From Amoebophrya sp. A120 (Eukaryota; Protista; Dinoflagellata), in assembly GCA_905178155.1 (NCBI GenBank), contig CAJINV010000007.1, positions 68,799-132,798 of the forward strand: DNA of 64,000 nt, in the 5' to 3' direction. The position numbers were made by a program, and so were the translations under genes. Under the pieces are notes generated by a model. That model did no database searches, had not been told where the DNA came from, and was given only the letters and a program-made list of their open reading frames with translations. Each line of letters opens with the position of its first letter. Within the stretch, counting starts at the first letter, position 1. This document shows positions 185 to 62,237 of the stretch, piece after piece.

Positions 185-1497
185 CTACAATTTACTCCTT
201 CGTAGTTTTACTTCGTCCGCTGCGTCGTTGGCTTTTGCAATCTCCTCTAACAAGCTCTTCACTGCGACGTCCTCTTCTGCACTACCGGGGGAAGAAGTTG
301 TAGATATTTTTGCCTTCAACACCCCAAGCAGGTTCGCACTAGAGGCCGCAGAACTGCTCGGCCCGATAATGATCAGCTTCGTTTTGACGCCACCCGCGGA
401 GGTCATCGCGTTCTCCACTTTTTCGTCGAACGCCTTCTTCGGATCCCTCGTGGTCTGCACCTTCTGCTGTTCGAGGAAGTTGTACAGCGGAAAAGCTACA
501 AAAGGATCAAGGGACACCTGGATGTTGCTAAAATTATTCCTTAAAACCTGCAGCGCCATCCGCAACAGAAGTTCATCCGCGATCTTCGCATTGGCGTGCG
601 GGGCATTTGTATCGCAAGAAAAAACTGTTTCACTGTAAACTTGTCATGCAGAGAATGGAACACAGAACAATTTGTCTTGCTACACCTGCAAGGCATTGGA
701 TTTTTAAGCGTGGTTTCCCTTGGGAAGCACGCATGGTAAATTTCCCCTGTCATGTGTAGCAAACTTGTGATGCGGATCCTGCAAAACCATCACAGTGAAA
801 CAGTTTTTTCGTGGGATAGTTTGAACCTTCGGTTTTCTCTACGCGAAGAAGAAGGCGGTAGTTTTTATAACCTGCTCAGCTGTTACAATCTCAAACGTTA
901 CAATAGAATATGGAAATCTGTGATGCAAGAGTGCATGTTCTAGCCAACTCTCATAGGATTGCGCATGACAAGTTCCGGCGTCCCAAACTGAACTACAATC
1001 TGGCGAAATTTGTATTGCAGAGAGAGAAACCCTCTGCGAGTCTGTCATGCTCATCATGCAACACAAGTCTCAAATTCTATTGTAACGTTTGAAATTGTAT
1101 CACCTGAGCGGGTTATAGTTTTCCTCTACTTTGGGCAGGTGTTCGGGGGAGAACTTTTTCGCGATTTTCCGTAGATCTTTGTCCTTGTATGAATTGCAAA
1201 AGCATCGTACTAGTAGAAATGGCATGACAAATTTTCTCTGCATCACAAATGGAATTTGTAATGCTGATTGGCCTTGAGAAAGAGACTTGTAATGCATAAA
1301 TGCAATTACTACGAGTACAATACTTTTGCACAGGATACCTTGATTTGCCCGGCAAAAACCTGGCTCCATTTGCTCGTTTTCATAGCGGCGGAAGTTGAGG
1401 ACGTCATTTTTGAAGAAAGCGCAGGATCTTCACTTGTGGCCATTCTAGAATTTTCCGAATAAATGAGGGACGACGAGCCCGTATTATAGTAGTTCAT
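185..1497 (-). CDS. Hypothetical protein, 4 exons, split by 3 introners (start uncertain)
   Basis: Removing 1188-1337, 866-1117 and 610-818 (each plus one 5-nt repeat) gives a continuous frame: ...WSQVFAGQIK-DKDLRKIAKKFSPEHLPKVEENY-RLLLRVEKTEGS-NAPHANAKIADELLLRMALQVLRNNF...RRSKL*. Confidence 0.7.
610..818. mobile_element. Introner (TIR intron), family TATCNCANGAAAAAACTG
   Basis: 27-bp TIR with 2 mismatches; flanks ATTTG/GTTTG; homologous to 34156-34374. Confidence 0.85.
866..1117. mobile_element. Introner, family TATAACCNGCTCAG
   Basis: ~40-bp TIR; DR GTTTT; homologous to the 42865-45406 element in opposite orientation. Confidence 0.9.
1188..1337. mobile_element. Introner, family A (TATNNNNTGCAAAAGTATCGTACT)
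   Basis: Imperfect TIR; DR CCTTG; frame restored on removal. Confidence 0.85.
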
Positions 1498-1666
1498 ACT
1501 TCTTTGCAACGCGGTAAAACTGGTGTACTGTGACAAATCACACAAACGATAATTTTTCTATTTGCTTTATTTGTGCGGCCGGAAAAACAGCATCTTACCA
1601 GCAACACTGTCTAGAAGAAAATGCGACTGTGCGTGGATGCTGCACAAGCTACACGTTTTTTCTCAA

Positions 1667-7422: not shown

Positions 7423-9664
7423 TTAGTTCCAGGGTCGCGACAGTTGTATCGTCAATTTCAGCGAGTACAACGACCCGTCGCCCTGTTCCTTTTTAACCTT
7501 CATTTCTAGGTGCGTGTGCGTTGTAAAGCCAACCGCTTCGGACATGTTGTTCACTGCAACATGGCCATGGGGTCCAATAACAAGCCTGCCGCGGCGGCGG
7601 CGGCGGAACGAAGCTGCAGCTTCCTGAGAAAGCCGCACGGGCCGCGTCCCAATGACGAGCACTGGCGTTTCAGATGTGCCAGACAAGACCCACCTACATG
7701 TGGCGTGTGGCGGACCTGCTGCCAGTGCGATCTCGAGGACCTTCAGAAATTCCGTGTAGAACGATTTGGAGTCCACAACATCCTGGAACCGCGGAGAATG
7801 CAGTTCTACGTAAGGCTCCAACAACTCTGCCAGCAGGAGCGACTCCTTATGAACTGCAAAAGTATCGTACTCGTATAAATGCATTACAAATTTCCTCAGC
7901 GTGAGAGATAAAATTTGTCATGCGGATTTACGTTAAGAAAAAGATTTGTAATGCAAGACTTGCATTTATACGAGTACGATACTTTTGCACAGGATACTCC
8001 TCCGGCGGCGGCGATGCTGGGCGGCGGGAAAGCAAAGCCGCAAAGGTTTCGTGTCAAATGTAAAAATGTCTGGGTCTGGAAGATTGATGCCAGGTTTGTC
8101 ATGCACATTTTGCATGACTCCTGATCGATCTGTGATATGCATGCCCTAGCATCACAGATTTTGTGAGGACTTCCTGATGCTTATACCGCATGACAAATGC
8201 TCTTTCCGTGTAGCAAAACTTGGACTCTCTTTGCTGCTCATGCAATACAGATTTTTTTAGAATCCAAAAGCAGCATGACAAGTTGCATTCTTCCAGACAT
8301 CCAGGGATTTTTACATTTGATATTTCGTTTGCTGCAGCAAGTTCGGGATGAAAAATCCAGCGCTTCAAACGCTTCTGCTATCCTGTGCAAAAGTAAATCG
8401 CACTCGTACTAATTGCAGTTATGCATTACAAATCTAGCTGTTAAGGTAAATCAGCATTACAAATTCAGGTTTGTAATGCTGAGCTAATTTGTATTGCGAT
8501 TTATACTAGTACGATACTTTTGCACAGGATATTCTGCTATCCTGTGCAAAAGTAAATCGCACTCGTATTTTCAATCGCAGCCATGCATGACAGATCTATA
8601 AGTTACTAAGGGAAATTCGCATTACATGTGGTTTAGCCTAGCGCTTAAGGCTCCGGGGAATAAAACCTTTTCAAGGCTCCGGGGAATAAAACCTTTTCCG
8701 TGCATATATTAAAAAAAAACTCAAACTGAAACAACACACGCCTGGGATTATGGAAGCATATATTTACATTGTGCTAATACTTTCTTGTAATTAGAGCGGG
8801 GGAACAAATGGCCCGTTAACTCGCACCCGCGAGTTAGCCGTCCGCGCGGCCGGCCGGACGCCGGTTAACTCGCGGCTAGAAGTGTTGACAAGTCGAAAGG
8901 TGGCGCAAATCTAAAAACCCGAAGTGCTCCAAAATTTGTAATGCAAATTTCATTCTTTCCGTCTCCCTTCGGAAAAATTTGTCATGCGATCTGTACTAGC
9001 GCGATGCTTTTGCAATGCGTATCTGCTTGACCGCGACAAATTCCTCGGCGAAGTTGACCGGTTTCGACGTGCCGGCAAGCAAATTCCAAAGGTTATCAAA
9101 TGCGAAAGTGTAAGTGTCTGGGTCTGGGAGATTCTGATACTTGTCACGCACGTTTTGCATGAGCCATGATGTCTGTGATGCATGCCGTAGCATCACAGAA
9201 TTTTCAAGGGGCTCTTGATGCCTATTTCGCATGACAAATGCCCTATCCGCGTAGCAAAAATTACATTCCCTTATTTGCTACTCATGAAATACAAATTTTT
9301 TTGGAATCCAAATGCAGCATCACAAGTTGCATTCTTCCAGACCCAGACATTTTTGCACTTGATACAGGTTCGATGGTAATGGAGAATTCACACACGTTGC
9401 TTTAAGCAGGTTCCGAAAATGGGCTGCGACTTTCCTCGTGTCCGCCCCCGGCGGGGGCGCGCTGCCGGCCGCAACTCTTTCCAGCACTGGTTCCGGAAGA
9501 TCTGCCAACGACATTTTTGGAGATGTTCCGTGATTCCCCGCGGCTCGGCAGCCAAGCGGCGCCATCACTCCCATCAGGGAAAAACCGACAAGAAACACCA
9601 TGGAACCAACAACACTCGTGGTGGAGGTCCGCACACGACGGGAGGCGTGCAGCAGCGTCAGCAT
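7423..9664 (-). CDS. Putative secreted protein with F-box-like motif, paralog 1
   Basis: N-terminal hydrophobic stretch, then SLADLPEPVLERVA. Spliced frame: ...LPSN-LWNLLAGTSKPVNFAEEFVAVKQ-KRLKRWIFHPELAAANE-TFAALLSRRPASPPPEE-SLLLAELLEPY...SRPWN*. Aligns with paralog 2. Confidence 0.8.
7848..7996. mobile_element. Introner family A
   Basis: TIR; DR CTCCT; site empty in paralog 2 (~16365). Confidence 0.9.
8052..8322. mobile_element. Introner family B (TATCAAATGYAAAAATGTCTGGGTCTGGAAG)
   Basis: TIR (left end reads TGT); DR TTTCG; site empty in paralog 2. Confidence 0.9.
8379..8531. mobile_element. Introner family A (first of tandem pair)
   Basis: TIR; DR TTCTGC. Confidence 0.85.
8538..9021. mobile_element. 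Introner family A, expanded by nested insertions
   Basis: DR TCTGC; orthologous to 16472-16643; contains a ~25-bp tandem duplication (~8647-8697) and a GAGCGGGG-type TIR end at 8794. Confidence 0.8.
9094..9364. mobile_element. Introner family B
   Basis: TIR; DR AAGGT/CAGGT. Confidence 0.88.
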
Positions 9665-15575: not shown

Positions 15576-17603
15576 CTACGGCGCGCCATATGTCAACCAG
15601 GGGTCAAACACTGGAACTGGTCGTGGCGCCACCAGCTTTATCTCCAATGTCAGCAAGTACTCTTCGCCCTGCTCCTGTTGGGGTCCGCTCGGACTCGGGT
15701 TCTCCACCTCCACTTTTGCAGCCTGCATTCTGAGGTACGTTCCAGTCCGAAAGCCGGCATCGTCGGTGTAATCCAGAGGGGCTTCAAAGGCAAGGCCGAG
15801 AAAGTCGAAAGCTGCTAAAATTTCCTGAGAAAGACGCACGGGCTCCATCATATTAACCGCGATCCCATTTGGGCCCATCAAAAATCCAAATTCGGCGCGC
15901 GGCCCATCAGCTTCCTTCACCCCAAAGGCAAATCCAAATTCGGCGCGTGGCGGCACTGCTTGCAGCCCGGTCTCGAGGATCTTCAGAAGTTTCGGATAGG
16001 CACTGTATGGGGTTCTCAAACGTTACACTCTCAAATGTTAATACATGATTTGTCATGTAAGTTTGCCATGAGTACCTACATGATCAAGCTGCTTCGCATG
16101 ACAAGTTCGCGACTCGCAAAATAGGATTAGAATCTCAATCTGTGCCAACCCTGTAGTGCAAAAGGCGCAATCTTCCCCCTTTCGATTTTGGCACTCTTGC
16201 ATTACAAACTCACGCAACAGTTGAGAATGTAAACATTTGAGAACGCCATACACTGCGTTGAGCCCGTCGAGCTAGTCCACGGGGATCTTCACCAGCATAA
16301 TTTCCGTACCGATCATCATGCCACGTCGGAAGATAAGGTTGCAGCAACTCTGCCAGCAGGAGCGACTCCTCCGGCTTCGATTCTCGAGGGCGGGAAAGTA
16401 ACCCGGCAAAGGTTTTGTCTACCGCAGCGAGTTTGGGATGAAAAGGCCCCGCCCGCTCTGCACGCTTCTGCTATCCCAGGCAAAAGTTTTTATATCGCAC
16501 TCGTACTTCTATCTAGTAATCGCAGCCACGCATGACAGATCTATGGTCTATGGACCACAATCCGCCTATTATACAAATTCCATTCTTTCTTGTCATGCGA
16601 TTTAGATACTATACCAAGTGCGAAGATGCTTTTGCAATGGGTATCCGCTTGACCGCAGCAAAGGCTTCAACTAACTTGCGCAATTCTGTGCCCAATTCTT
16701 GCGCGCGATCCACATATTAAAGTGAAAACTGCCACCCACCCCTGAAATTGCAAAAATTTGCGATGCGAAGTTTCCAAATGAAAACTTTTTGTCATGCATG
16801 AAAGGAGTATGAATCTTTCTGATGCAGAGCCTAGGCGTGTATCGCATCGCTTGCATGACAAGCGCCGCTCTTGCTGGGGTCTTTTGCAATACAAATTTTT
16901 TCTATTCACGATTGGAAACCTGTAATGCTGATAGATGCAAGAGGGCGAGTGTTTCACTTGGTGGAAAGGCTTGCAATACAAATGCTCCCAAGTTCGGGGG
17001 TGGGGGCATTTTTCATTGTGATACCACATACGGCAAGTTCCATGGAGCATTCGTACACGTTGCACGAAGCAGGTTCCTATCAACTGCAAATATGTCTGGG
17101 TCTGGAAGGGTGTAAACTTGTCATGCAGGTTTCCCATGAGCATGACCTGACCCATGAGGTTTGGAATGCGGGACCTAGCACTACAGAGTCCGCGAGGTCT
17201 CTGTCATGCCTATCCTGCATGAGAAGCTCCCTCCCAACTTGGTCGAAAGTGGACAGGCAACCACAACACAGATTCATTTTTGCATGATTCGGATTTAGAA
17301 TGACAAGCCGCAATCTTCCAGACACAGACACTTTTGCATTTGATACTTCCGAAAATGGGCTGCGACTTTCCGCGTGTCCGCCCCCGGGGGCGGGGCGCTG
17401 CCGGCCGCAACTCTTTCTAGCACTGGTTCCGGAAGATCTGCCAACGACATTTTTGGAGACGTTCCGTGATTCTCCGCGGCTCGGCAGCCAAGCGGCGCCA
17501 TCATCCCCGTCACCGAAAAACCAACAAGAAACACCATGGAACCAACAACGCTCGTCGTGGGACTCAGCACACGACCACGGCAGGCGTGCAGCAACGTCGG
17601 CAT
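15576..17603 (-). CDS. Putative secreted protein with F-box-like motif, paralog 2
   Basis: Spliced frame: MPTLLHAC...SLADLPEPVLERVA...AAHFR-NLLRATCTNAPWNLPYV-DRAQELGTELRKLVEAFAAVK-xKRAERAGPFHPKL...RAQRS-AYPKLLKILE...TYGAP*. Confidence 0.82.
16006..16250. mobile_element. Introner family C (TATGGNGTTCTCAAA)
   Basis: TIR; DR CACTG. Confidence 0.9.
16472..16643. mobile_element. Introner family A, older copy shared with paralog 1
   Basis: Degenerate TIR; DR TCTGC/TCCGC. Confidence 0.8.
16715..17023. mobile_element. Introner, family D-like (CCCCACCCC subterminal)
   Basis: Imperfect ~35-bp TIR; DR CCACA. Confidence 0.82.
17078..17345. mobile_element. Introner family B
   Basis: TIR; DR GTTCC/CTTCC; empty site AGCAGGTTCCGAAAAT in paralog 1 (~9405-9420). 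Confidence 0.9.
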
Positions 17604-41091: not shown

Positions 41092-42280
41092 CTACTTTCG
41101 AAAAAAACCCGCCGTCCAATCATGTTTTGGCTTTTTCAAGTTATTCCATTTCTCAGTGCTTATCGCAGGAAGGTGTCGTGATGTTGTAGTATCCAAGAAA
41201 AAAGTGTGTAAGTGTAACTTTGTAGGAAGATCAGCATCTTCACGAATTCGTTTTGCATTACAGGGAAAACCTGTCATGCGCAGCTAGTACGTGGAAACAC
41301 CTTCTATGAAAGCGGCCTATGACGCACCTCTAGCATGACAAGTGTAACTTAACAGTTTAGCATTTCCTGCATCACAGACTTACACTTACACAGTTTTTTC
41401 CTTGCATATGTAGAAAACTCCAAATCTTCTGCGTCATCACTTCGGCCTTGGGGGAGATTCCGGTGCCCCCGTGCCCGCCGTCGCGCTCCCGTTCAGAAGC
41501 GGCACCGTGCCCCCGCCTGGAAATCCGGCGGTGCTGGTTGAGAGGACGCTGTCCTTGGTTGCATTCACCAAGAGATTATGCATTGCAAAACTATGTAAAT
41601 CGCTATCGTACTACTGGGAATTGCCTTTGTACAAATTTTCTCAGAATAATATAACACAAATGGAATTTGTAAAAATGCTGATTCAGCTACAAAAGTCGAT
41701 TTGTCATGCGAGGTTGCGATTACTCCGAGTACGTTAATATACTTTTGCAGTGCATAGAGGTGCTGGTTTGTTTGGTTGGACGCAGAAAGCGGCTCCGGCG
41801 GGGATCGAATGCCGCTGGCTGTACTTATCAAATGTAAAAATGTCTGGGTCTGGAAGATTGCCAGGCTTTTCATGCACATTTTGCATGACTTCTGATGTCT
41901 GTGATGCATGCCCTAGCATCACAGATTTTGTGAGGGCTTCCCGATGCCTATACCGCATGACAAATGCTCTTTCCGTGTACCAAAACTTGGACTCCCTTTG
42001 CTGCTCATGCAATACAAATTTTTTTTAGAATCCAAAATCAGCATGACAAGTTGCATTCTTCCAGACCCAGACATTTTTTACAGTTGATAGCACTAGTACT
42101 CACACCATGGTACAGCTGCCCGTTCTGTAGTCTTCTCGACGCGGTGGTGGGGTCCTCTCCTGCTGCAACCGCGGACGAGGGAGATGAGAACATAAAGTCG
42201 TGCAGGGAGCGGAGAACTGTCTGCGCCACCGAACCCCCGGATCCACCTGTAGTGGGGTCGTGTGTTGAGGAATCCGACAT
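41092..42280 (-). CDS. Probable low-complexity coding exons (separate gene or tail of the 4-TM gene)
   Basis: MSDSSTHDP...VSTSA-ASGIRSPPE...NQHL-LVNATKDSV... is in frame after removing two elements; 3' end ambiguous. Confidence 0.4.
41190..41408. mobile_element. Introner-type TIR element (GTGTAAGTGTAA family)
   Basis: TIR; DR TGTAG. Confidence 0.85.
41577..41756. mobile_element. Introner family A-like
   Basis: TIR; DR GAGAT/GAGGT. Confidence 0.8.
41826..42089. mobile_element. Introner family B
   Basis: TIR; DR GTACT/GCACT; very similar to 8052-8322. Confidence 0.9.
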
Positions 42281-42489
42281 ACGTTGCTATTGCTATAATA
42301 GTACAACATCGCATTTATTAATTATAATTTCACCTTGCTTCTAAACTTTATTCAGAAGTGCTTGTCTTGTAGTTCATCTCAACTTCAACAGCAGGATGTT
42401 TGGACAAACAATAACAAGGGGTGCTGAGCTGCTACAACACGACGCTGCACCAGGTTTTTCTTCTACGACTGCGTCTAGCACGATTTATA

Positions 42490-45400: not shown

Positions 45401-47007
45401 GTTATACTGAATCCCTTCAGTTTCGACTTCATGGAGCGCTCGAGGAGTATGAGACTACACAACTCCCTCTCCCCCTCATTTGTAATGCAAAATACCAAAT
45501 CCACCCTTTGCCCCTTGGCACTTTTTGCATGACAAATTCTGGAACCTCAAACAGCACTACAATCTTCCTGGGCGAAGTTGTCATGCAAGACCTGCATTGT
45601 TGCCGACGCTTGTATTGCTGTTTATGCCCGACAAATGAGGGGGGCAGTTGTGCACCCTCATAAGTAGAAAGACAAAGGCAAAAATCCCCGCAAAAATCAG
45701 CATACAGGATAGATGCACGTAGAACCGACTCGGGAAAACCCAGGTCAGCAGGATACTGGAGAAGAAATACAGCAAGATGGCCTATCCTGAGTAAAAGCGT
45801 CCCCATACCAGGGTAAAGATGGGAAATCTGCTAGACAAATCAGCCACCTTTGGTTGTTTCGCACGACAAGTTCATCCTCGTAGAAGTGTCATCCTGTTTA
45901 GCTAGTTCAGCAGCATCACAGGTCTATCATATCATGCTGTTTCTAGCATCACAAATTATCCCAAAACACGACTAGAAAAAGCCTCTCATGGGGCTTCGCA
46001 TGAGAAACTTTTTTGGCATGCAGATTTGCATGACAACTCTGGGGTGGGGATGTTTTTACTTAGAATATCGCCAGCTTAAACATCAAGTAGACGGACTCTT
46101 GCTCTTTCTTCAAAAAGTCCACTGCCCGGTGAAAGCTGGCAATTCCGTCGGGACCCCGCAGCGCCAGTCCCGGGCCCCACATCGCGAGAAAGACCGTGCA
46201 GTATTGTCTGAAATTTATCAACCATGATGTGATCCCCATTCCCTTTTTGCATGACAAACACAGAATCATTTACATTTTCGTACATGTTTATTTGCATGAC
46301 AAATTGGATGGGGCGGAAGATGGTGACTTTATTTGAGGGAATACCCATGTCACGGTGCACACGGAAGCGCCAAAGGCGCCGGACGTGAGCGAGAGGTATG
46401 CAATACAAATTTCCCGTACATGTACAAGATGCATCACAAATTTCGCCAATTTGAAGCGTAAAACTTGTCATGCTAGACTAGGATCGAAGCCAATTTTTGT
46501 CATGCAGAGACCGCATGTGTACGTGTACGGGAAATTGCCTGTGGATAAGAGGTAAACCGAAGACACGAGGTAGGAGGTTTCGTAGGGTATCGGTGTCGTC
46601 AGTTGGTTGAAAAGGTATCAAATGCAAAAATGTCTGGGTCTGGAAACTTGTGATGCTGGTTGAGAAAAACGAGAAAACCTCAATCGACTGCCAAGCATGA
46701 CAAGTTTTGGAGTTGCTACAGTCTTGTCTATTCTGCATGGCAAACTGGGCGTCTACATGAGAGAAAAGTGGGGGGTTTGGGTCACGCGCATTACAGACTT
46801 AGGAGTCATGCCAGCCAAGCATGACAAACCTTTCATCTTTCCAGACCCAGACATATTTGCAATGCATAAGAGGAACCCACCGACAATGGTCGACGCGCCG
46901 CACCAGAGCCAATAATTCGCGACGTAGTAATCTAGTTCCAACTGCCGCAGTTCGGCTTGGCGGATTGACACATCCGCCACGACCTCGTTCTTGTAGGCTT
47001 GAAGCAT
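42490..47007 (-). CDS. Four-TM membrane protein, Orai/CRAC-channel-like fold suspected
   Basis: MLQAYKNEVVADVSIRQAELRQLELDYYVANYWLWCGASTIVGGFL-FNQLTTP...VSSVYL-SLTSGAFGASVCTVTW-xVFLAMWGPGLALRGPDGIASFHRAVDFLKKEQESVYLMFKLAI-LLYFFSSILLTWV...IFAFVFLL-ERSMKSKLKGFS-IETLQNEN...; four hydrophobic segments. The family assignment is inference. Confidence 0.7.
42929..45201 (-). mobile_element. Poly(A)-tailed retro-insertion
   Basis: T17 at 42929-42945; duplication AGATTTGTCTTGCATGA at 42912-42928 and 45202-45218. Confidence 0.75.
44406..44810 (-). CDS. Short ORF (134 aa) with reverse-transcriptase-like motifs in reversed order
   Basis: AVAQFGDDIAV, then MGVRQGLMGPEIL, then HILALDINNFFNAV. Confidence 0.45.
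   Translation of the reverse strand: MARENNDEAAQEEIAVAQFGDDIAVTVPMGVRQGLMGPEILQLIRRVLGQEEPQERPRHGANNHILALDINNFFNAVPVHAQRAEGEDGAERDGQDDEEQADQNEGAEQAAEQGGGNRNRRRFMGSHSVRSRKA
45448..45662. mobile_element. Introner family E
   Basis: TIR; DR AGGAG/AGTAG. Confidence 0.82.
45783..46067. mobile_element. Introner family D
   Basis: TIR; DR TGGCC/TCGCC; reverse orientation of 35732-36025. Confidence 0.85.
46202..46343. mobile_element. Degenerate introner
   Basis: TATT...AATA weak TIR, two GCATGACAA motifs, DR lost; needed to join two TM exons. Confidence 0.5.
46397..46547. mobile_element. Introner (AATTTCCCGTACA type)
   Basis: TIR; DR AGAGG. Confidence 0.88.
46616..46868. mobile_element. Introner family B
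   Basis: TIR; DR AAAGG/AGAGG. Confidence 0.88.
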
Positions 47008-49227
47008 GATGACGATGCCCGCTCTCTTGTTTCAACAGTTTAGAATTAAAATTATCAAACCATTTGCGATTGCACATACTTTTACTTTATAATCTTCATT
47101 TTCCAAATAAGTACAACACACCATTATAATTCACGCGGCAGCTAATAAAGTACTTACAACTTTGTCTCCTGTGTCTCTTCTGCTCTACATCGCGCCACTC
47201 TCACCACGCAGACAAGCAGAGCCGCTCCCCCCCCTCGCAAGGGAAAACAGCATGCAAGAAAGGCGACGAAACCGAAATGGTCAACTACATACGCCCGCGC
47301 TCGTCATTCTCTATCATTAGATCGGACAAGGAAGAGGAAGTAATTGAACACGGTCGTGTCAGACAAGTGGTATATCAGACGACCAACATCTTCCGATCGC
47401 TACCAATGCAGCAACAACAGCTGGAGCTTTGTTTTCCTTTTCGATTCCTTTCTAAAAAATCATACAAAGCATCAGGCTGCACGCGCAGTCCTAATTATAC
47501 AGGTGGTTTTTGGAGGAAGTCCAGCAGCAGGTCCACACAAGTAACCGCTTCGCATAAGGAGCAGTTGTGCTCCTCTAGTACTTCCTGCGCGGTCACTGTA
47601 CAGGCAGGTGCTGTACTGTTTCCAGCGAAACAGCCTATCCTCTACGCCAGATCGCGGCATATTTGTCGAAAAGTAAAGTCATCATACACAAAATCTCAAA
47701 AACTACAGCATGTATCGTACCGACATCAAAACGCCCAAAGTTGTGTAGGTGTTCTATCTTCTTCCAGGTAAAAATCTTCTCTGATGTTAGAAAAAATGGC
47801 TTCAAACATTTTCCAGGTGTATAGTAATTGGTCCTCGGCTGTTCCATAATTTAAGAACTTCTTAAGCAGCCCTCTGTAGTTGTTGGGTCGAAGTTGTTGG
47901 CCACTTTTTCAGGATTTTTCGTGATCGGAAGTTGTGCGCATAAAAATGTGTAAACAGCTACTTTGAATTATGCATATGCGTCGAAAGCACCAGCAGCCTC
48001 CTGCTTCTAGTCGTACTTGCATGCTCTTGTTGTATCCCCAGCCCTCTTCTTCATTGGGCAGATTTTCGCCCTAACGCTTTCAGGCCGGAAAATCCAAAAT
48101 TTTTTCGAGTTTTTTTTTTCTTCGGCAGATGCCCCATTGTTCGAGAAACAAAAGAAAAGGCAAGGCGGGCCCTGAGAATGGCGAGGCGGGAAGCGTCACA
48201 GGTGGGAGAGGCAGAGGCAAGAGTAATTTTGTAAGGGGCGCGCGGCTGCCTGAGCCTCCGGAGGAGGGGCGACAAAATACGCAAGAAAGAATGGCCACAG
48301 CCTGCGCATGAGGTAGTCGACTGGCATATGGAGAAAGCCGAACCAGCCCTGACACAAATCCCCGGCGCTGGGCAATGGGGCCCAGGGCTTCATCGATGGA
48401 TTCTTCCCAGCTCAGCGCGGGCGTGGGGAAAAAGGACGTCGCAAACTCCACGAGCCTGCCGTGAAATTTTCGTGAGATTTCCTGCTCGGAAAATTTCAGG
48501 AAAATTTCAAACAGGCTCAGGAAAATTTCAATTCGGCTCAGGAAAATTTCAATGGACCTCAAAAATGGTCCCGGAAAATTTCAAAAATCGGGCATGTAGC
48601 GCAAAATCCCTCACGTTTTTGCAATTTGCCCGATTTTTAAAATTTTCCTGAAATTTTCCTTGCGATGGTTTTGGTTTTCTTTTGATTTTCCTCAAAATTT
48701 TCCTGGGATTTTCCGCGACCACCCCCGCGGCAAAATCCCAGGGAAAATCTGTAGCGCAGAGAAGGTTCTCAGAAAACCACTACACACCCACAGAAGCCGA
48801 CGAAAGGTTGGCGCCCGAGATTTTTCGCAGGCGAAAACCTAAAACACACCCACCCGACATTTTGTCGAACATCGGAAAACCCCACACATGAAGAGAACAC
48901 AACTCCCATCCAACCCACCCCATGCTGGGTCCTCTGAGCACAGAGCTGGCCCACAAGACACAAGAACACGGACTCAACAAGACCCGAAGGAGAAAAGGAT
49001 ACCGGAGAGACGCAGGCAACCACCATCGAAACCCCGAAGCCCCGGCCATCTGCGGGAAAACGAAAGCGGAAAGCTTTTTTTTGGATTTTTTTCGGATTTT
49101 GTTTGCGGGGTTTTTGGATTTTCCGAAATGTTTCCGCTTAGGCCCAAAATCCCACCAATCTTCAGGAGGTGCTGAGAAAAGTATAGTAAAAATTGATAGT
49201 CATATCTACAATTTCATCGCAAGACTC

Positions 49228-53004: not shown

Positions 53005-56000
53005 TCAAATCATCTCCCAATCGGAAAAATGATCGCCTTCCAGTACAGCAGCTACCTTGCTACTCTGCGGAACATATGGATTGCGAATATGTCTGGGTCT
53101 GGATCTGGAACGATGCCGGGTCTGGTGATGCGTGTCCAAGGAGAGACCCTGCAGTCTCTTCGAAAGGCTATTGACGGCCTCGTCGTCGACGAGTGCGCCG
53201 CTGGCACGACAATTTTCAGGACCACCAACATTCGCCGTATCACCGTGAGCCTGATGATCGCGCATCAGTCGGGTGTTGGTGTAGCTGCGATTCTGTCCCC
53301 GCTTTTTTGGCTCACCATTCATTTCCGTTTCAACCAGCCCGGATTCCTTTCCAGGCTGCAGGTATGCATTGCAAATATGTCCGGATGTCTGGAAGGATGC
53401 AAGGTTTGTCATGCTTGTCTGGCACAAACGCAGTTTTTCATGCGGCAGGCGCAACGCTAAGCTGCGCAAATATTTCTCATGCTTGGCTGTGCACCATTAC
53501 AGACGAGAATTCACTATTCACAACTCAGCATTACAAGTTTCGGTTTCCAGACCCAGACATATTTGCATTTGATAGAACAAGCTGAGCTGGAACAGGAAGA
53601 ACTCGATCGGCAAGCCCGTCTGCCACGGGGTTATTATGGAAGCGTCAGGATTGAAATCGTCAAAGTCGTAACTAATAGTTTGTGATGCATAAAATGCAAC
53701 CCACAAAATGCCTGTCTTGCAGAGTAGGCAAGGGAGGCAGGTTGTAAGCCTGTTGAGGGGTAGAAATAGAGCTGCTAAAGTAGCACGACAAAAGGCGTCT
53801 TCCTTACCCAAACAGCATTACAAACTGGATTTCGGCTCTACCCAAATTTGTCATGCGCCAGTTGAGAACTGGGTTACATCTGGCATCCATTTTATGCATG
53901 ACAAATCATTTCAACTTTGTCGATTTCAATCCTGACGCTTCCATAGTCTTGCGCGGCGAACTGTCCTGCTCGACGTTGCCTTTTTCGGCGGCGCGACTGA
54001 GAAGAAGTACTTGCGCGACCAGTGGCTTTTCGTTTATTTGTTGACGTGCGCAGCGCCTGCTGCTGCGCAGTAGACTCAATCCGTTCCACGTTCGACGCTT
54101 TGAGCATCTCGACAATGGATTGTCGTTGCCCATACTTCGACCGTTATCCTGTGCAAAAACGTCCCCAGCCTCAAGATGGGATGAAATCTACTTTAGACAA
54201 ATCAACCAGCTTTGGTCGTTTCGCAGTGGTTGTTTCGCATGTTGACAAGCTTTGTTCCTTCATAGTGTAAAACTCCTGTTCAGCTAGTTCAGCAGCGTCG
54301 CAGATATAGCATGTCACGCTGATTCTAGCATGACAAATTCGACGTCCAAAACACGACTAGAAAATGCTTCTCATGGGTTTCCGCGTGGGAAATTTTCTTT
54401 GGCATGCAGATTTGCATAAATGCAACTCTGGGAACCGTGGGGACGTTTTTGCTCAGGATAACCGCCACAGCGTACTCCCAAGGAAATCTACGGTAACGAG
54501 ATTGACTGCTCTGCCTTTCATCGGAGGCTTCTGCGCACCAGACGACGCGAGCATCAGTAGTTGCCACAGCTTTTCCCACCAAGCTTGTTCTTCAGGCACA
54601 GGACGGGCGCTAGAAGGAAAAGCTCCTGCTTGTTGATATAAATCCGCCGCCTTCACAAACTCGAAGTCAGCACCCACCTTCGCATGGTTGTCGGCGTAGA
54701 AGGCGCTGTGTGGTGCTGATTATTATCAAATGCAAAAATGTCTGGGTCTGGAAAAATGCCAGACTTGTCATGCAGATTTTACATGACCCATAACGCCTGT
54801 AATGGATAACCTGGCATCGCAGATTTTTAGCGGGCTTTCTGATGCCTATCCCGGATGAGAAATGCCATCTCCATGTAGCACAAACTGGACCCCTCTTGCT
54901 GGTCATGCAATACAGATTTTTTTAGAATGCAGAGACAGCATCACAAGTTGCAATCTTCCAGACCCAGACATATTTGCATTTGATACTGATGTTTTTTCAC
55001 CAGCGGACGACGACGAGGACATCAACGTCTTCGCGTGCTCGACTCTTCTTTCCCACCGCTCGCAGTTTTCTTCCAGAATCGTGTACACCTCATTTCGCGG
55101 AACTCCGGTAAATGTGAAGGAAGACCGGAAAAGCGGAGTACTAGTACCCACTTGCTTGGGGATGAAATTCTGAAACTTCTTCACTTGTCCGTCCATCACC
55201 TTTGACAGGTCCGTGGAACTCGAATACCCACCCACAAACTCGTCTTGAAACGAAAAAACGCTGTCTGCTAGTTGCGCGGTTTCTTCGGAACCTGTACCTA
55301 GCAGCCGCCCCCGCAGCTCTCGATAGGCTTTCTTTTTAGCCTCGGAACTACCCGCGTAGTAGGTCACCACAATCCTCGGTCCTCGGTTATTTCTTGGAAA
55401 TAGAGTCGTGCCGCGTTTGGAATCGTCGAAGATTGGTGCGGCCTTCACGACTTCGGCAACCGTCCACTCGGACAGAAGCGGCGTCTCCTCGGGGGGGTCG
55501 CAGAGAACGTTCTGGAAGGTGCCAAGAGGAGCCATCCTCCGTTTCGCTTTCCTCGTCGAGCAGGCGCTGCCTTGCATCATCAAGATGTTTTTTCTTGTTC
55601 AGGTCCATTATTTTCGGGCCCCGCGTCCTGCTTACCAACAAGTCTGCCAGAGCAGAAGCTTCCTCGTCCAGGGTGGTAGTTGATGTTCTATTTTTTATAA
55701 TTCTTGTGGGCGACTTCTGAAAAAACCGCCTCAGCAGCTTCTCCGCCGTGTCGACATTACTTCTCAGGTTCAAAAAAATCACTTGGTCTCGGCTTTCCTT
55801 CTCGAACCGTTTCTCGAAGCAGAACGCTGCAAGGTCCGCGAAAACAGCATCGGCCGAAACAGCTAGTTGACGCACACCGAAACCGAAATCCCCATGGTAC
55901 GCGCGGATAATTTCCTCGTTGGCGGCTCCGCTGGCTGCATCCAGAACGAATCTCAAGTCAAACCACCGCGCGCCAGCGCGGAGCTGATCAAGGATGGACA

Positions 56001-57099
56001 AACTCTGGGTCTCCCAGTTCTCCTCTACACGGAAAGTAGAGTGCACTTCTTCTTGACGTTGACTCTTCATCGACCGAGGGTCAGAAGCAGCTGCGACCCG
56101 GCGGCCCCGAGGTGGGACAAGATATGAAGATGTGGCAGCAGCCGCAGCCGCCCCGTGGTGAATCAGCCGCGCGCCGACCCTCCCTGCCCGGGAAATGTCA
56201 AACGTACCCCGAATACTGCCGCTGTCGTATCAAATGTAAAAATGTCTGGGTCTGGAAGAATGCAACTTGTGATGCTGCATTTGGATTCCTATTCCAAAAA
56301 AATCTGTATTGCATGAGTACCAAAGGGAATGCAATTTTTGCTACGCTGAGAAGGCATTTGTCATGCGGAATAGGCATCAAGAAGCCTTCAAAAGATCTGT
56401 ATTGCTAGGGTATGCATCACAGACATCATGGCTCATGCAAAACGTGCATGACAAACCTCGCACTCTTCCAGACCCAGACATTTTTACATTTGATATGTCG
56501 TGGGTGCCGACGAAAGTTAGGTCTTTCAGCTTCACTTTGTCTTGCAGATTCAAGTCGCGAATCTTTTGCAAGCCGGCTGGATCCAGAACGAGCAAATCTT
56601 CCGGGGTACTTTCAATAAGCTCCTGCTGCTCGGGTTGCTGGTTATTGGAATTTATTGGGATGCTAGTACCAGTACCACCTTGAAGATTTGCGGGGGACGA
56701 TACATCTCCTACAACAACTTCTTCGCTGTGGTCAACGATGTTCGTCCAGCCAACATCTTCAAAATCCAGATCTTTCTGTTTTGCAGCTGTAATGACGCTC
56801 CATTCAGGTAACTCCCCCTCTTCCTCCACCACCTCTTTCGCACGAGAAGGCCTTCGCTGCTCAGGACGCGCAGGTACTTTCTCTTTCTGCCCCCCACCAC
56901 CAGAGAAATAACCTGCAAAGCGGTTGAAGAGTGCAGATCCTCGCGCCGGCTGTCCGAGCTCCTGCAACGAAAGCGCCTCGACTTGATGGACAATCCCGTG
57001 CAGTGCCAGCTGCACGGAAAAAGAGGCCAGCAACATGCCCACAACCACTGGGGCAGCAGCACGGGGGCGCAGGACCAACTCGTGACACCTTCGCGTCAT
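53005..57099 (-). CDS. Secreted PI-PLC X-domain (PLC-like phosphodiesterase) protein with 5 introners
   Basis: Signal-like N-terminus; LKDLTFVGTHD-S, ETQSLSILDQLRAGARWFDLR, AYHG and VNLVTVDFL match PI-PLC X / PLCXD motifs; one frameshift between ~55490 and 55590 (homopolymers). Confidence 0.85.
53075..53574. mobile_element. Introner family B with duplicated left TIR (53075 and 53363) and cargo
   Basis: DR GAACA flanks the outer ends. Confidence 0.8.
53635..53945. mobile_element. Introner (TATGGAAGCGTCAGGATTGAAATCG type)
   Basis: 25-bp perfect TIR; DR eroded GTTAT/GTCTT; joins AAQD-PVADG. Confidence 0.88.
54145..54460. mobile_element. Introner family D
   Basis: TIR; DR ACCGT/ACCGC. Confidence 0.87.
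54721..54985. mobile_element. Introner family B (extra TAT at left end)
   Basis: TIR; DR CTGAT; joins EKTS-APHSAF. Confidence 0.9.
56228..56495. mobile_element. Introner family B
   Basis: ~31-bp perfect TIR; DR TGTCG; splits GTHD|S. Confidence 0.93.
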
Positions 57100-58246: not shown

Positions 58247-59761
58247 TCTCCAAAATGTTTTCAAGACAAAGCGCGGAACTTACCACACTGCTGCTGTTTG
58301 TTGGCAGGAAGAGGTTGGAAGGCATGGCTTGGCTGGCAACATCGAGGGCTTGTATACAATTACCTACAACACAAACCCGACTACTTAGGCTTTCTCTCTT
58401 TCTCAGCATTTCAATTCCCGATCCCGGCCACCATGGCGTCAAAAATGAAAATTTGCTCAATAGAACCGACTAGACCTAGAGTAGACCACCACTATATTCA
58501 GCTTTATTTTTTCTCGATTCAGGCGGCAGGCCCCATCATCATTTCAAGATCCAGGCTTTAATATTTCTTGAATGCTGTACCGATACTTCTTTTTACATCA
58601 CCAGTTCAGGATCGGGGTTCATTTATTTTTCGAGATCAAAATCACTTCAGGATCTTCCAGGTTTAGGGTTTAGCAAAATACACCGTCCCGCGTTGGAAGG
58701 CGGCATCGGCCCTTGCGTGGTTTGTTGGTGGGAAGTACTTAGACGGCGGAAGACGAAAAAGGACGGCTTTATAGAGGCAATTTAAAGAAATTAGGCGGCC
58801 TTCCACGATGGTAAATTGACCAAGAAAGAAAGAATAACTCAAGAGGTGAACAGCGGAGCCTGGAGGAGCCTGCGCGACCCCTCGGGTGGGCGGGCGTCAT
58901 GAAGCGCGCCGGCAACTTTCTCTATTTCCTGTTCCTGATGGCAGCTCATTGCGGTTCTCGCTTCAAGAAGCGTCGGGTCGATTGATTATACAACGGTCTT
59001 TCGATACGAAGTAGCTTCAGCTGCGAGCTGACTGCACTTCACATCGTGCATCCTGCCCTCTAGCGGATGCCACTGCCTGGTTACCAGGAGCATGTGCATA
59101 CAAAATGACTTAGATATGAGCAGGCACCCGACGCAGACTCACCAGGGGTGTTACAACTCTTCAGCTTCGCGTACATCTTTTTCATTCTACAGATTCAAGA
59201 TGAGGAGTGCTCGAAAAAATCACCCTGTAACTTCTTTTGTGGCGTTCAGATGCACAGATGCTTGCTAGCTTGCTACGCTACGCTACGCACGGACCGCTGC
59301 TAAACTAAACACGCGGAGAGTTCGAACATACACAAAATTTGCGTCAGCTTGTAAAATTGCATGTAGCAAGTATGTTCAAATTATTCGACTTCGACCCCTG
59401 TCGACCTGTAACACCTCACTGAGACTTTCACCGCCGCCTAACCGCCCGGATATGGTTCCGCACTGTGTTAAGCTTTGTAGAGAGGAAAACGACGACCATC
59501 ACCGCCACCACTTTCTGCTCTGCGCCACTTCTTCTGTTTCATGCAGCTCGTCTGTGCGAACGAATGCATAAAATTTCCTTTCCTTCATATTCCTTCTGTA
59601 CTGAGTTGATCGCAAATCATGTCCGATAATCTTGCTTTTTTCGACCAATATAATGCCAGCAAGCAATACTTTTAGAGCGCCTGTCTTTTTTTCTTGCGAA
59701 GTTGTAGCTTCACTTTCCCTTTCGTTCAGAGAAAAATTTAAACATTTGATTATTATGATGA

Positions 59762-62237
59762 TCAATTTATCAGCCGCGACATGACGGTGGCGATGGCTTT
59801 GGCTTTCTTTTTTCTTTCCATACGGTGTTGCGCATACTGATCGTAGACCTGTTGAACATGCGAATCTTGCGGTCCTCCGCGCGAGCCACCGAGATCAGAG
59901 AGGCGCAGACAAGCCCTTCTCACGCCGCGACCAGGTTTTCGTCCGCTCAAGCGCTCTTTCTCCCGACGGATGGCGCGTTCTAGCGAGGGCAAGACCGTGG
60001 CGACTTCCGTTTCCCTTCTCTGGAGGGCGACCAGCCTCACTTCAGGACTGAGACTCTCAGTTGGGGTTGCTCCAAAGAGAGTGGGGTTGCTCCATCTACC
60101 GGTGACCCTGAAGCGCACAGTGTGCCCCACCTGCAAAGGAGAAATCTTGTCCCCACGTTGCGACCCAAGTCCTTCGCCTTCGCGGGACAGCTCGAGGTCA
60201 TGCTCGTACGACGGATCCAGAAACCAGCGTACCTCCTTTTCGATGTCTGGTAGAATGTCAGCAACGAGACGCGTTTCGTCTCGGTGTGTGTTGCCACCGT
60301 TCCACCCCCACGCGGCGGCGGGAACGAACATGCGTTTTTCTTCCCGCCCTTGTTCAGACACGATGACCTCGACGCCCAGGGTATTCACAAAAACAGCTGC
60401 GCCAGTGCAAATCCGTTGTACAACATGCAGAACAGCAACGAGCATTTCTATCGACAACGCTGTCACCGCCTCTCCCTGTCTCTGTGGTCATAGGTCATGC
60501 TGGAAAATATACTATATCTGTGTGTTGATATAGAGTCACTCGTGACTTCATCCATCGATTATACCACTAGCTGGCGCGTAGCCGTAAGGTGGATTTTTCC
60601 GTCATGCGAGACCAACTTGCGATGCTGTTCTGCAGCCGAACAAACTACACTAACGGGTGGACGACCTTTCATCCTGGATAAGGGACCTCCGCCGCGTCAG
60701 CTTCATCCTCCGGCAGAGTGCGCTATCCCACAAGAAAGTACTACACCTACAATTCCCGAAACAAAATACTTATAAACTTAATTGAGTGCGGTTTATCGAC
60801 GCTCCTTTCTCAGCATGACAAATTTCTTGGCGCCGCTCACTCTAGTAATCACGAAACTTCTTCTGCGCTTGTACAAGAAATGGTAATTGCATTCCGTAAC
60901 ATTACAAAAATTGCCTCTCCATCATCTATCTCTTGGCGTCTCCGCATTACGCAGTCCTCTTTGGGGGGCCGAAAAATTATACAGCAAGAGCGCAAGTCTA
61001 GTTTTTGTTCTCTGGAGGTACTATAGTATGGGCGTGCTTCTTCTTTTCTGTGGGATATGATGCGGATTGATAAAATCTCTGACATCTCTGCTTTCACCAG
61101 GTTCGTAAACCTGTCACTCAAGTCCTTGGTCGCGTCTGCGCTTGCCGGATGGTCGTGCCTGTTAAATTCGTCAAGGCGGCTCGTCGCCTTTAGCCAATCA
61201 AGATACGCGGTCTTCAGGTTGGACCCACACAGTGCTAATTGGAGGTCATGTGGGAAGCTCTCTTCAAAGCGGAAGTCCTTCCGGAAGAATTCTAGGTAAC
61301 CAGGACCGTATTCGCGCGCCAGGATGTCCGCTGTCGCGTCGATCTCGTCGACGTCCATCCTGTCCGCTGCCATTTTCGCCCTGATTGTATTATAGGAGTC
61401 GCCGTATTTTCCTTTTATGTCTTTCAGCATCAGAATCATTTCCTTGTGTCGTGCCTGCTGCAGCGCATCGAAGCGGTACTTAAAAATCAAGCGGGTCACC
61501 GCTACGATTGCCATGTCGTGGCGCGCTTTGACGTTCTCCGGAGTGGGATCCGGACCAAAACGAGATGGGGATGTATGTTCTTGCACGGCCGTGGCGGCAG
61601 GAGGCACGGCATCTCGAGATGCACGAGGACTTCTGGGACGACTGGACGGACGACCACAGCGGGAGGGAGCTCGTCCGGGTCCGGCGCACGGTATGCATTG
61701 CAAATATTTTTGGGCCTGGAAGGGTGCAAGGTTTGATGTCGTGCAGGTTTTCTATGCCCCATGAGATCTGGAATGCGAATGCAGGACCTAGAATGACAGA
61801 TTCAGATTCTGTGCGGTCTCTAGTATGTATGATGACTAGGTATGTATCATGAGAAACTTCCTCCCACACTTGTCAACAAAAATGGACAACTTTTGGCAAT
61901 CATGTCTGACCCACGAGACGCATCAGAAGTTTCTTTGCACTTTCCCAGACATCCAGGGATGGTGTTTGCTCTGAATAATAGCTGACGCAGATGAAGATGC
62001 AGCACGAGATGGAGATGGAGTTCGTCGACGACGAGTAGACGAAGAAGGACGCCCACCAGCACTTCCACTTCCAGCACCAGCACTACCAGTACCACGAGGA
62101 CTTCCGACTGTTCTCATCCCCGCTACTTGGCTCGTCTGCAAGAGCATGTCCGCAAAAAGATAAAAATTCACCGCCTGCAGAACAACGGCCGAAGCCGCGG
62201 CGGCACTGATTTTTCCGATAACGCGACCAGCAGCCAT
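59762..62237 (-). CDS. Hypothetical protein with signal-like N-terminus (exon structure partly unresolved)
   Basis: Long open frames at ~61980-62237 (MAAGRVIGKISAAAASAVVLQAVNFYLFA), ~61025-61690 and 59762-60466, separated by element-like sequence. Confidence 0.5.
61692..61977. mobile_element. Introner family B (degenerate right end)
   Basis: Left TIR clear, interior similar to 17078-17345; DR not found. Confidence 0.6.

What the first reader, a model, noticed from the sequence alone, without database searches (positions are those of the whole stretch)
610..61977. Genes shredded by ~59 transposon-like, non-GT-AG introns (introners) with TAT...ATA ends and 5-nt target duplications
Seen: many unrelated TIR families, nearly all bounded by TAT...ATA and abutted by a 5-nt direct repeat. 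Excising the element plus one repeat restores the frame, including through a catalytic motif (GTHD|S) and TM helices. No shared GT-AG boundary exists. Established: inverted-repeat introner elements are reported from Amoebophrya genomes, so the class is not new, though to my knowledge neither the excision machinery nor the mobilising enzyme is settled. Inference: a TIR-guided, exon-sequence-independent splicing route running alongside ordinary GT-AG introns.
Basis: partly seen in the sequence, partly recalled or inferred. Interest (0 to 1): 0.85.

Follow-up and report, generated by a model that had tools for sequence, protein, structure and literature searches.

The report
Transposon introns cut at fixed offset
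About 60 small transposon-like inserts break up the genes in this stretch of a parasitic dinoflagellate genome and are cut out of the RNA without the usual GT and AG ends, apparently always one base before their TAT start and four bases after their ATA end, which likely reflects an altered spliceosome; the intron class is known, but I found no paper giving this cutting rule.

Summary
Confirmed. I count 61 TAT...ATA elements (121-1197 nt) with terminal inverted repeats and a 5-nt target duplication. The window is Amoebophrya sp. A120: one spliced gene equals its deposited protein, 302/302. So these are the introners of Farhat 2021, and the class is known. RNA contigs lack 33 of the 38 elements laid; DNA contigs keep them.

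Not found in print: (1) Duplications whose two copies differ locate the cut. Of 18 junctions tested, 14 are informative, and one register fits all: intron = N-TAT...ATA-NNNN in transcript sense, for either element orientation. Farhat called the cut variable or unknown, yet all nine of their top A120 ends start NT. This polarity argues against reverse-transcriptase skipping and DNA excision. (2) An introner nested in a GT-AG intron appears to be spliced as well, and two others leave 2- and 7-nt microexons. (3) Sequence-unrelated families share an internal GCAT[GTC]ACA motif, 20-fold enriched, pointing to one mobiliser.

Best reading (0.5): a U1-less spliceosome reads N-U-A-U as a relaxed 5' site and places the 3' cut by distance. 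Main rival (0.35): a Euglena-like non-spliceosomal route. No transposase was found.

The parts
610..1337 (-). 3 introners (610-818, 866-1117, 1188-1337) in a minus-strand ORF
7848..9364 (-). 4 introners (7848-7996, 8052-8322, 8379-9021, 9094-9364) in paralog copy 1
16006..17345 (-). 4 introners (16006-16250, 16472-16643, 16715-17023, 17078-17345) in paralog copy 2
   Evidence: 17078 site is empty in the paralog at 9406; an RNA contig piece stops at 16000; the other three are not displayed in the cut tables
18771..24577 (-). Gene of 1117 open codons with 13 introners: 19255-19478, 19531-19792, 19842-20009, 20400-20544, 20633-20884, 20972-21124, 21200-21375, 21436-21687, 21818-21970, 22300-22455, 22635-22787, 23992-24136, 24222-24373
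   Evidence: RNA contig lengths between pieces equal predicted exon sums 91/91, 415/415, 174/174 (X3) and 1389/1389 (X4)
23992..24136 (-). Register-informative introner (k<=1; piece edge at 23986 in two runs)
25324..25656 (-). Introner
   Evidence: junction not displayed
28697..30601 (-). 4 introners (28697-29063, 29429-29985, 30111-30404, 30449-30601); 29429 and 30111 give k<=1
   Evidence: X4 joints (the 28697 joint is displaced by a local duplication, my reading); a DNA contig runs through 29429 unspliced (record 7)
32368..38547 (-). Conserved coiled-coil gene (302 aa = A120 P0002; 248 identities to A25 P0003) crossed by 16 introners and 3 GT-AG introns
   Evidence: start coordinate computed from the ORF
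32418..33614 (-). 1197-nt introner with an internal 133-nt tandem array; k>=1
   Evidence: loose end at 33616 in two runs
33646..35080 (-). Introners 33646-33906 (k<=2), 34156-34374, 34407-34552, 34607-34872 (k<=1), 34909-35080 (k<=3)
   Evidence: joints in X3 and X4
33954..34096 (-). Canonical GT-AG intron
   Evidence: joint CT..AC; fixes the minus strand as the transcript strand
35186..35408 (-). Canonical GT-AG intron
   Evidence: decoded from joint 35188>35701 with 3 letters between
35409..35415 (-). 7-nt microexon between introner 35420-35700 and the GT-AG intron
   Evidence: length assumes k=1
35732..36389 (-). Introners 35732-36025 (k>=1) and 36139-36389 (k<=4)
   Evidence: joints in two runs
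36448..36863 (-). Canonical GT-AG intron holding nested introner 36458-36673 (k>=1)
   Evidence: decoded from joint 36448>37172; X4 record 12 spans 36675-36864 with other letters on both sides
36864..36865 (-). 2-nt microexon between introner 36870-37171 and the GT-AG intron
   Evidence: length assumes k=1
37209..38489 (-). Introners 37209-37358 (k<=1), 37457-37674 (k<=2), 37719-37928, 37960-38177 (k<=2), 38258-38489 (k<=4)
   Evidence: joints in two runs
41190..47823 (-). 9 elements: 41190-41408, 41577-41756, 41826-42089, 43200-43320 (weak), 45448-45662, 45783-46067, 46397-46547, 46616-46868, 47496-47823 (weak)
53075..56495 (-). 5 introners: 53075-53574, 53635-53945, 54145-54460, 54724-54985, 56228-56495 (the last splits GTHD|S)
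60724..61977 (-). Introners 60724-61057 and 61692-61977 (repeat only 1/5 identical; removal of length+5 restores the frame)
610..61057 (.). Internal motif GCAT[GTC]ACA(AAT) on both strands, 146 copies in 54 of 59 elements, modal spacing 31-33 nt

Best explanation
These are non-autonomous transposon-like elements that duplicated 5 bases of the target on insertion and are removed from the RNA as introns, apparently always as N-TAT...ATA-NNNN, likely by an altered spliceosome that no longer needs G at the first base or AG at the end. Shown: insertion with a 5-nt duplication (empty paralog sites); removal of length+5 from RNA but not from DNA; a single register that fits every informative junction; no GT, AG, U2- or U12-branch signal. 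Inferred: the element's TAT supplies 5' splice-site positions +2 to +4, and the last duplicated base supplies +1. The TIR stem (firm from about TIR position 9 inward) would bring the ends together in place of U1/U2AF cross-intron pairing. The 3' cut would be set by distance, four bases past ATA, possibly counted from the invariant A at -7 acting as branch nucleotide. Because TAT...ATA is symmetric, either orientation works, and because 1+4=5 the original exon is restored. Mobilisation is inferred to be by one trans-acting DDE-type enzyme that binds the shared ends and the GCAT[GTC]ACA repeats; it was not found.
For: Spliced depth is 172-222 against 8-17 for unspliced pieces in X3. Register: k>=1 in 32418, 35732 and 36458; k<=1 in 23992, 29429, 30111, 34607 and 37209; only k=1 fits all 14 informative junctions of 18. 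Same-family copies in opposite orientation (23992, 37209) both give k<=1, and one family (32418, 34607) brackets k=1. The k=1 residues match the A25 ortholog at A164, T97, L278 and Q126, where other registers change them. Genome-wide support: all 9 top A120 non-canonical ends in Farhat Table S4 are NT-xx and all 9 for A25 are TT-xx; A25 repeats start TTA + purines, so both strains share U+2 and A+3, the core of GUR/RUAUCC 5' sites. In the window +2 T, +3 A and -7 A are invariant in 61 of 61, while their TIR mirror positions vary (TAC x3, ATG x1, ACA x1). Precedents: Physarum transposon-derived U12 introns begin rtatc; tunicate spliceosomes excise non-GT-AG introns (abstract); A120 keeps 83 of 89 spliceosomal proteins but U1 was not found.
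Against: No direct evidence of the enzyme: no lariat, circle or protein data. There is no branch consensus (CT[AG]A[CT] in 3 of 59, CCTT.A[CT] in 0 of 59), and a branch only 6 nt from the 3' end is very short by recalled standards. G at +1 is not enriched (16 of 44, p=0.24), and a purine excess in the first 44 (33 of 44) did not repeat in the last 15 (6 of 15). TATCC shows no bias to the transcript 5' end (17 vs 13). The asymmetric invariance rests on about 4 independent changes, post hoc. Minor-spliceosome snRNAs are reported absent. The geometry closely resembles Euglena's non-conventional introns. All host genes here are on the minus strand. The RNA evidence is from assembled contigs of two samples of one study, labelled 'RNA?'; contigs drop rare cut sites. 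Two of the eight bracketing junctions are read from piece edges, not displayed joints.
Confidence: 0.5

Rival explanations
1. Same RNA-level, fixed-register removal, but by a non-spliceosomal structure-guided nuclease/ligase (or another unknown machine), as proposed for Euglena non-conventional introns; the intron would leave as a circle or linear hairpin.
For: Both terminal dinucleotides are free (37 different end pairs in 59 elements) and there is no branch or AG signal. The stem is strong (z -6.6 for 37209; inner TIR predicted paired in 83% of 41 elements). The geometry, a short 5' spacer and longer 3' spacer around a paired motif, parallels Euglena N3-CDG...CH'G-N5-6 with strict spacers, whose introns are reported to circularise. 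U1 is reported missing in A120.
Against: U+2/A+3 are shared by A120 and A25 despite different TIRs. The terminal triplets need not pair (5 variants, of which 21200 and 30111 are still removed). There is no G-U over A-C excess (33 vs 33), and element 34607 folds only weakly (z -2.0) yet is spliced.
Confidence: 0.35
2. Self-splicing or RNA-only excision by the hairpin itself.
For: A nested copy inside a GT-AG intron appears to be excised where no coding selection needs it.
Against: Internal sequences are unalignable across 24 groups; no Rfam match in the window; elements as short as about 145 nt.
Confidence: 0.04
3. Programmed DNA-level excision (ciliate IES-like) in some life stage.
For: TA-like ends and retention of one repeat copy; only one DNA run was laid, its life stage is unknown and its joint table was cut.
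Against: DNA contigs run through elements and show none of the four RNA joints. Partly spliced intermediates exist. The register follows the gene, not the element's orientation.
Confidence: 0.03
4. Reverse-transcriptase template switching across hairpins flanked by direct repeats (false introns).
For: Hairpin plus direct repeat is the classic substrate (recalled); all RNA data are cDNA.
Against: Switching needs the copied downstream repeat to prime at the upstream one, which would keep the downstream letters. The RNA keeps four upstream letters and one downstream letter, even where that letter differs between copies. The spliced form dominates and is needed for a protein conserved in A25 and other species.
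Confidence: 0.02
5. Hidden GT-AG sites are used, or the genes are dead.
Against: Every displayed single-element joint except the displaced 28697 one skips exactly length+5; 57 of 59 have no such register; the genes are transcribed and conserved.
Confidence: 0.01

Closest known systems
Introner elements / non-canonical introns of Amoebophrya sp. A120 (Farhat et al. 2021, PMC7789003; abstract, sections 10, 11, 12, 16, 32, supplement legends and Table S4 rows read; figures not seen)
   Same: Same organism (P0002 identical); IR starts TAT, then seven loose bases, then an A run; 3-5 nt direct repeats; about 240 nt; RNA-seq supported; no internal transposase.
   Different: The paper calls the splice sites variable relative to the hairpin and the border unknown, and sees no end signature. 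Here the repeat is a strict 5-mer and one register (-1/+4) fits all junctions. The internal GCAT[GTC]ACA motif, nested splicing and microexons are not in the text read.
Euglena non-conventional introns (PMC12501133: abstract, sections 8 and 12; PMC6221363: abstract)
   Same: No GT-AG; inverted-repeat ends; fixed short 5' spacer and longer 3' spacer; likely MITE origin; coexist with spliceosomal introns.
   Different: Motif CDG/CH'G at 3 and 5-6 nt, against TAT/ATA at 1 and 4 nt here; Euglena needs a purine at the exon start (not supported here, 37 of 59). In Euglena these introns are removed after conventional ones; here the few intermediates show introners out while a GT-AG intron is still in.
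Physarum polycephalum transposon-derived U12 introns (bioRxiv 10.1101/2020.10.12.336362; passages read)
   Same: Intron starts one base before a TATC inverted repeat (rtatctt...aagATAT).
   Different: TA duplication, AG/AC end inside the TIR, TTTGA branch and a U12 snRNA there; here a 5-nt duplication, a free 3' end outside the TIR, no branch motif, and minor snRNAs reported absent.
Fritillaria (tunicate) non-canonical spliceosomal introns (PMC13326754 abstract; PMC11282704 passages)
   Same: Transposon-derived non-GT-AG introns excised genome-wide.
   Different: They keep preferred ends (AG-AC, AG-AT) and U1; a divergent U2AF is implicated.
A120 introner family 38 and other TIR introners in Gozashti et al. 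2025 (PMC12130899; passages read)
   Same: TIR elements in this genome; one family carries ORFs related to Copia/Gypsy, a candidate integrase-type mobiliser.
   Different: No such coding TIR element lies in this window; the passages read do not give the cut register.

Membership tests
Amoebophrya A120 introner elements (Farhat 2021) | Non-GT-AG intron supported by RNA | tested here: met
   33 of 38 laid elements removed; 57 of 59 without a GT/GC-AG register
Amoebophrya A120 introner elements (Farhat 2021) | Terminal IR starting TAT, seven loose bases, then >=3 A | tested here: met
   position profile vs paper text
Amoebophrya A120 introner elements (Farhat 2021) | 3-5 nt direct repeat at the boundaries | tested here: met
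   5-nt peak 0.86 vs 0.24-0.33 at other lengths
Amoebophrya A120 introner elements (Farhat 2021) | Repeated copies (families) | tested here: met
   42 of 59 in 7 families, 66-91% identical; 17 singletons within the window
Amoebophrya A120 introner elements (Farhat 2021) | Genome is A120 | tested here: met
   spliced ORF identical to A120 protein P0002, 302/302
MITE / non-autonomous TIR DNA transposon | TIRs, target-site duplication, presence/absence at homologous sites, no transposase inside | tested here: met
   6 of 59 have stop-free frames over 90 codons (longest 224, in the element with the tandem array), which were not searched against families
MITE / non-autonomous TIR DNA transposon | Cognate autonomous element with the same ends | not testable with these tools
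   no whole genome held; none in the window; ORF 12017-13816 is an rve fragment fused to a LINE-type RT C-terminus, with no TAT TIRs found around it
U2-type spliceosomal intron | GT/GC 5' end and AG 3' end | tested here: not met
   G at +1 in 16 of 59, AG end in 6 of 59, GT-AG in 1 of 59 at k=1
U2-type spliceosomal intron | Branch consensus near the 3' end | tested here: not met
   CT[AG]A[CT] in the last 45 nt in 3 of 59
U2-type spliceosomal intron | Lariat intermediate / spliceosome dependence | not testable with these tools
   contigs cannot show lariats; raw runs did not cover the junctions
U12-type spliceosomal intron | 5' site RTATCCTT | tested here: inconclusive
   +2 to +4 TAT matches; TATCC at the transcript 5' end in 17 of 59 vs 13 at the other end, so no strand bias
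U12-type spliceosomal intron | Branch site CCTTRAC | tested here: not met
   0 of 59
U12-type spliceosomal intron | U11/U12/U4atac/U6atac present in the genome | not testable with these tools
   reported absent by Farhat; no genome held
Euglena non-conventional intron | N3-CDG...CH'G-N5-6 signature | tested here: not met
   +4 to +6 is T-[CG]-variable
Euglena non-conventional intron | Paired ends with fixed unequal spacers | tested here: met
   spacers of 1 and 4 nt; inner stem
Euglena non-conventional intron | Release as full-length circles | not testable with these tools
   no raw-read coverage of the junctions

The most novel reading that the evidence does not exclude
A120 runs a U1-less splicing machine that needs neither G+1, AG nor a U2-type branch box. 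It reads N-U-A-U at the 5' end and cuts exactly four bases past A-U-A, with the first A of that AUA as the branch. This 1+4 offset matches the 5-nt duplication made by a single unidentified transposase that binds GCAT[GTC]ACA repeats, so every new insertion, in either orientation and even inside another intron, is at once a perfect intron.
Probability: 0.25. Interest if true: 0.9.

Novelty: already known. Interest (0 to 1): 0.62.

Why it matters
More than 60% of A120's introns are non-canonical, and the 2021 genome paper left their borders and machinery unresolved. A fixed rule, N-TAT...ATA-NNNN, turns 'no signature' into one signature. It lets tens of thousands of introns be annotated exactly, and it says where to look for a branch point, circle junction or guide RNA. 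It also offers a reason why these transposons are harmless in exons: cut offsets of 1+4 equal the 5-nt duplication. The shared internal motif is a concrete probe for finding the missing transposase. How far a spliceosome can drop its near-universal end rules is a long-standing question, and this makes it directly testable with existing RNA-seq.

Tried and rejected
G at intron +1 (a GT-like donor) was my first idea: not enriched, 16 of 44, p=0.24. Purine at +1: 33 of 44, then 6 of 15; 39 of 59 overall, p=0.06, so not supported. AG at the 3' end: 6 of 44 vs 3.6 expected. RNA-strand selection on the stem: G-U 33 vs A-C 33. Pairing of the flanking bases beyond TAT/ATA: none above chance. GCAT[GTC]ACA as branch point: rejected, as it lies on both strands at 39-214 nt or more from the 3' end and has no sense copy in many spliced elements. 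U12 identity: no branch site, no orientation bias. ORF 12017-13816 as mobiliser: rve hit E 2.5e-4, below the cut-off; its only relative is an A120 RT protein matching the C-terminal half; no flanking TIR pair with a duplication stood out among many chance pairs. PI-PLC identity of the GTHDS protein: no Pfam hit for either half, no longer homologue, no relevant PDB hit, Atlas gave no answer; it stays recalled. Raw RNA runs X10, X11 and X12 did not cover any introner junction (X10 covers mainly 26.7-28.2 kb; X11 0 reads; X12 35 partial reads), so they are no test. No run was on record as RNA among the indexed holders. Rfam: 0 matches. No whole genome held. Roy et al. 2023 (Curr Biol) is not held. 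Earlier findings for this genome: none.

Full report
1. Observation. An inverted-repeat scan gave far more pairs than shuffles (381 vs 1-6, inflated by tandem arrays and cross-family pairs). Curation gave 59 elements, and two more came from RNA contig lengths and inspection (21200-21375, 61692-61977). Median length is 251 nt, and the 59 cover 15.5 kb. 56 of 61 end in TAT...ATA. Flank identity peaks at 5 nt (0.86 vs 0.24-0.33); 29 elements match 5/5, 24 match 4/5 and 8 fewer. The curated list used the repeat in its score, so I also picked by TIR only: 33 of 44 picks had >=4/5, against 1 of 77 in 20 shuffles. Two paralogous gene copies give empty and filled sites with one versus two copies of the 5-mer, which shows a true target-site duplication.

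2. Organism and class. An exon search returned an Amoebophrya sp. A120 protein at 100% and its A25 ortholog at 95%. Splicing the window in silico gives that protein exactly, 302/302, across 16 introners and 3 GT-AG introns. Farhat et al. 2021 (PMC7789003) describe A120 introners whose IRs start TAT, then seven loose bases, then an A run, with 3-5 nt direct repeats; the profile here is the same. The class is known, from this genome.

3. Are they removed from RNA? Runs X3 and X4 are labelled 'RNA?' by guess. They behave as RNA: GT-AG introns are missing from the same contigs, an intergenic bin has depth 0, and depth differs over 100-fold between genes. 38 elements lay in the two stretches laid. 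In X3 spliced joints reach depth 172-222, against 8-17 for unspliced pieces. The DNA-like run X1 has contigs running through elements and none of the four RNA joints, though its joint table was incomplete. Raw-read runs did not cover these junctions.

4. The cut register. Where the two repeat copies differ, the RNA letter tells which copy was kept. Let k be the number of bases kept from the left (+ strand) copy. Of 18 junctions tested, 14 are informative: k>=1 for 32418, 35732 and 36458; k<=1 for 23992, 29429, 30111, 34607 and 37209; k<=2, 3 or 4 for six more. Only k=1 fits all; with k uniform and independent the chance is 1.4e-4. A single register is the simplest reading, not the only one, and 36458 and 23992 rest on piece edges. 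The host genes are on the minus strand (CT..AC joint), so the mRNA keeps four bases of the upstream copy and the last base of the downstream copy: intron = N-TAT...ATA-NNNN. Same-family copies in opposite orientation obey the same bound, so the register follows the gene, not the element. No plus-strand host was available. Farhat's Table S4 supplies a genome-wide check: all nine top A120 ends are GT-, CT-, AT- or TT-, and all nine A25 ends are TT-. Yet the paper's text sees no signature, and its Fig. 3 legend calls the sites variable and the border unknown. This polarity is the opposite of what RT template switching would leave, and is not expected of symmetric DNA excision (inference).

5. Microexons and nesting. 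Two odd joints decode as a GT-AG intron plus an introner separated by 7 nt (35409-35415) and by 2 nt (36864-36865); with these the protein is exact. Introner 36458 lies inside GT-AG intron 36448-36863. X4 record 12 covers 36675-36864 with other letters on both sides, which I read as both introners out and the GT-AG intron still in; those letters were not displayed. Excision thus looks intrinsic to the element and can precede canonical splicing, unlike the order reported in Euglena (abstract).

6. What is read? At k=1 both end dinucleotides are free apart from +2 T: 37 end pairs in 59 elements, G at +1 in 16, AG at the end in 6, and no U2 or U12 branch box. TIR positions 1-3 and 9-14 pair in 36-43 of 44 elements, positions 4-8 in only 17-28. 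There is no G-U excess on the transcript strand (33 vs 33), and in element 37209 the predicted stem starts inside the TAT/ATA ends. The five triplet variants fall at +4, -5 and -6, never at +2, +3 or -7; two of them (21200, 30111) are spliced. That is about four independent events, so it is suggestive only. A25 repeats begin TTA + purines, so U+2 and A+3 are common to both strains.

7. Mechanism. Best (0.5): a modified spliceosome reads NUAU as the 5' site; the inner stem brings the ends together; the 3' site is set by distance, perhaps from the A at -7. A120 keeps nearly all spliceosomal proteins while U1 was not found. Physarum shows transposon ends of rtatc serving as 5' sites, and tunicates show spliceosomes freed from GT-AG. 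Rival (0.35): a Euglena-like non-spliceosomal route with fixed unequal spacers. Self-splicing 0.04, DNA excision 0.03, RT artefact 0.02, hidden GT-AG or dead genes 0.01; the remainder is unlisted. I put RNA-level removal at about 0.95 and the -1/+4 register at about 0.85.

8. Mobiliser. BLASTN splits 59 elements into 7 families and 17 singletons. Yet 54 of 59 carry GCAT[GTC]ACA: 146 copies, 9.4 per kb against 0.46 per kb outside, shuffle mean 2 and maximum 6. It occurs on both strands, never with A at the variable position, mostly from 31 nt inward of an end, with a spacing mode of 31-33 nt. The motif was noticed by eye and then counted. It behaves like subterminal binding sites for one DNA-binding protein (inference). 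No autonomous element is in the window: the rve-like ORF at 12017-13816 is a chimera with a LINE-type RT C-terminus. Gozashti 2025 reports TIR-flanked A120 introners with Copia/Gypsy-like ORFs, which are the obvious candidates; Farhat found no transposase in A120.

9. Novelty. The elements are already known. Literature searches and the passages read showed no fixed register, internal motif, nesting or microexons. Roy 2023 was not held, and Farhat's figures and Gozashti's datasets were not seen. A. sp. ex Karlodinium and AT5 use mainly GT-AG and the former has U1, so the system is confined to part of the genus. Interest 0.62: a known class, but a concrete and testable rule for a machinery that remains unsolved.

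Noticed in passing
window 12014-14351 (-): ORF of 600 codons joining an integrase-core fragment (rve, E 2.5e-4, below cut-off) to a LINE-type RT C-terminal region, preceded by a Pro/Gln-rich ORF; looks like a nested or chimeric retroelement.
   Followed up: partly
window 1667-3332: Element with a perfect 85-nt TIR that also starts TAT and ends ATA, with GAAC subterminal repeats and an assembly gap inside; flank match only 3/5 and no A run; possibly a larger relative.
   Followed up: no
window 4309-5214 (-): Element-free ORF of 302 codons without a credible Pfam match, between repeated intergenic blocks.
   Followed up: partly
window 6599-7285 vs 14975-15545; 7400-9700 vs 15500-17700: Duplicated gene plus downstream region (79-90% identical blocks) with different introner complements, i.e. 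insertions after the duplication; a short block also recurs near 3970, 5940, 14810 and 18320.
   Followed up: partly
window 8379-9021: Element whose first part is tandemly repeated (8379-8531 and from 8538) and which holds extra inserted sequence.
   Followed up: no
window 33954-34096 and 46240-46300: Two copies of the introner internal motif inside an RNA-confirmed GT-AG intron, and two more at a probable unmodelled intron in a membrane-protein gene; may be introners converted to canonical introns.
   Followed up: no
window 35186-35408: GT-AG intron that reads like coding sequence; an unspliced contig covers it at about 4% of the spliced depth.
   Followed up: no
window 26700-28200: Highly expressed introner-free transcript, nearly the only one seen in raw run X10, with a 56% G>A difference at 27436 (allele, strain or editing; no matched DNA).
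   Followed up: no
window 42865-42910 and 45130-45406: Partial or rearranged copies of the 866-1117 element family; not counted among the 61.
   Followed up: no
window 39396-40817, 49230-50820, 52027-52338, 63693-64000: Tandem arrays with periods of 50, 6-146, 40-41 and 128 nt.
   Followed up: no
window 24641-24780: TATC...ATA segment with a partial TIR but no flanking repeat, upstream of the long gene; status unclear.
   Followed up: partly
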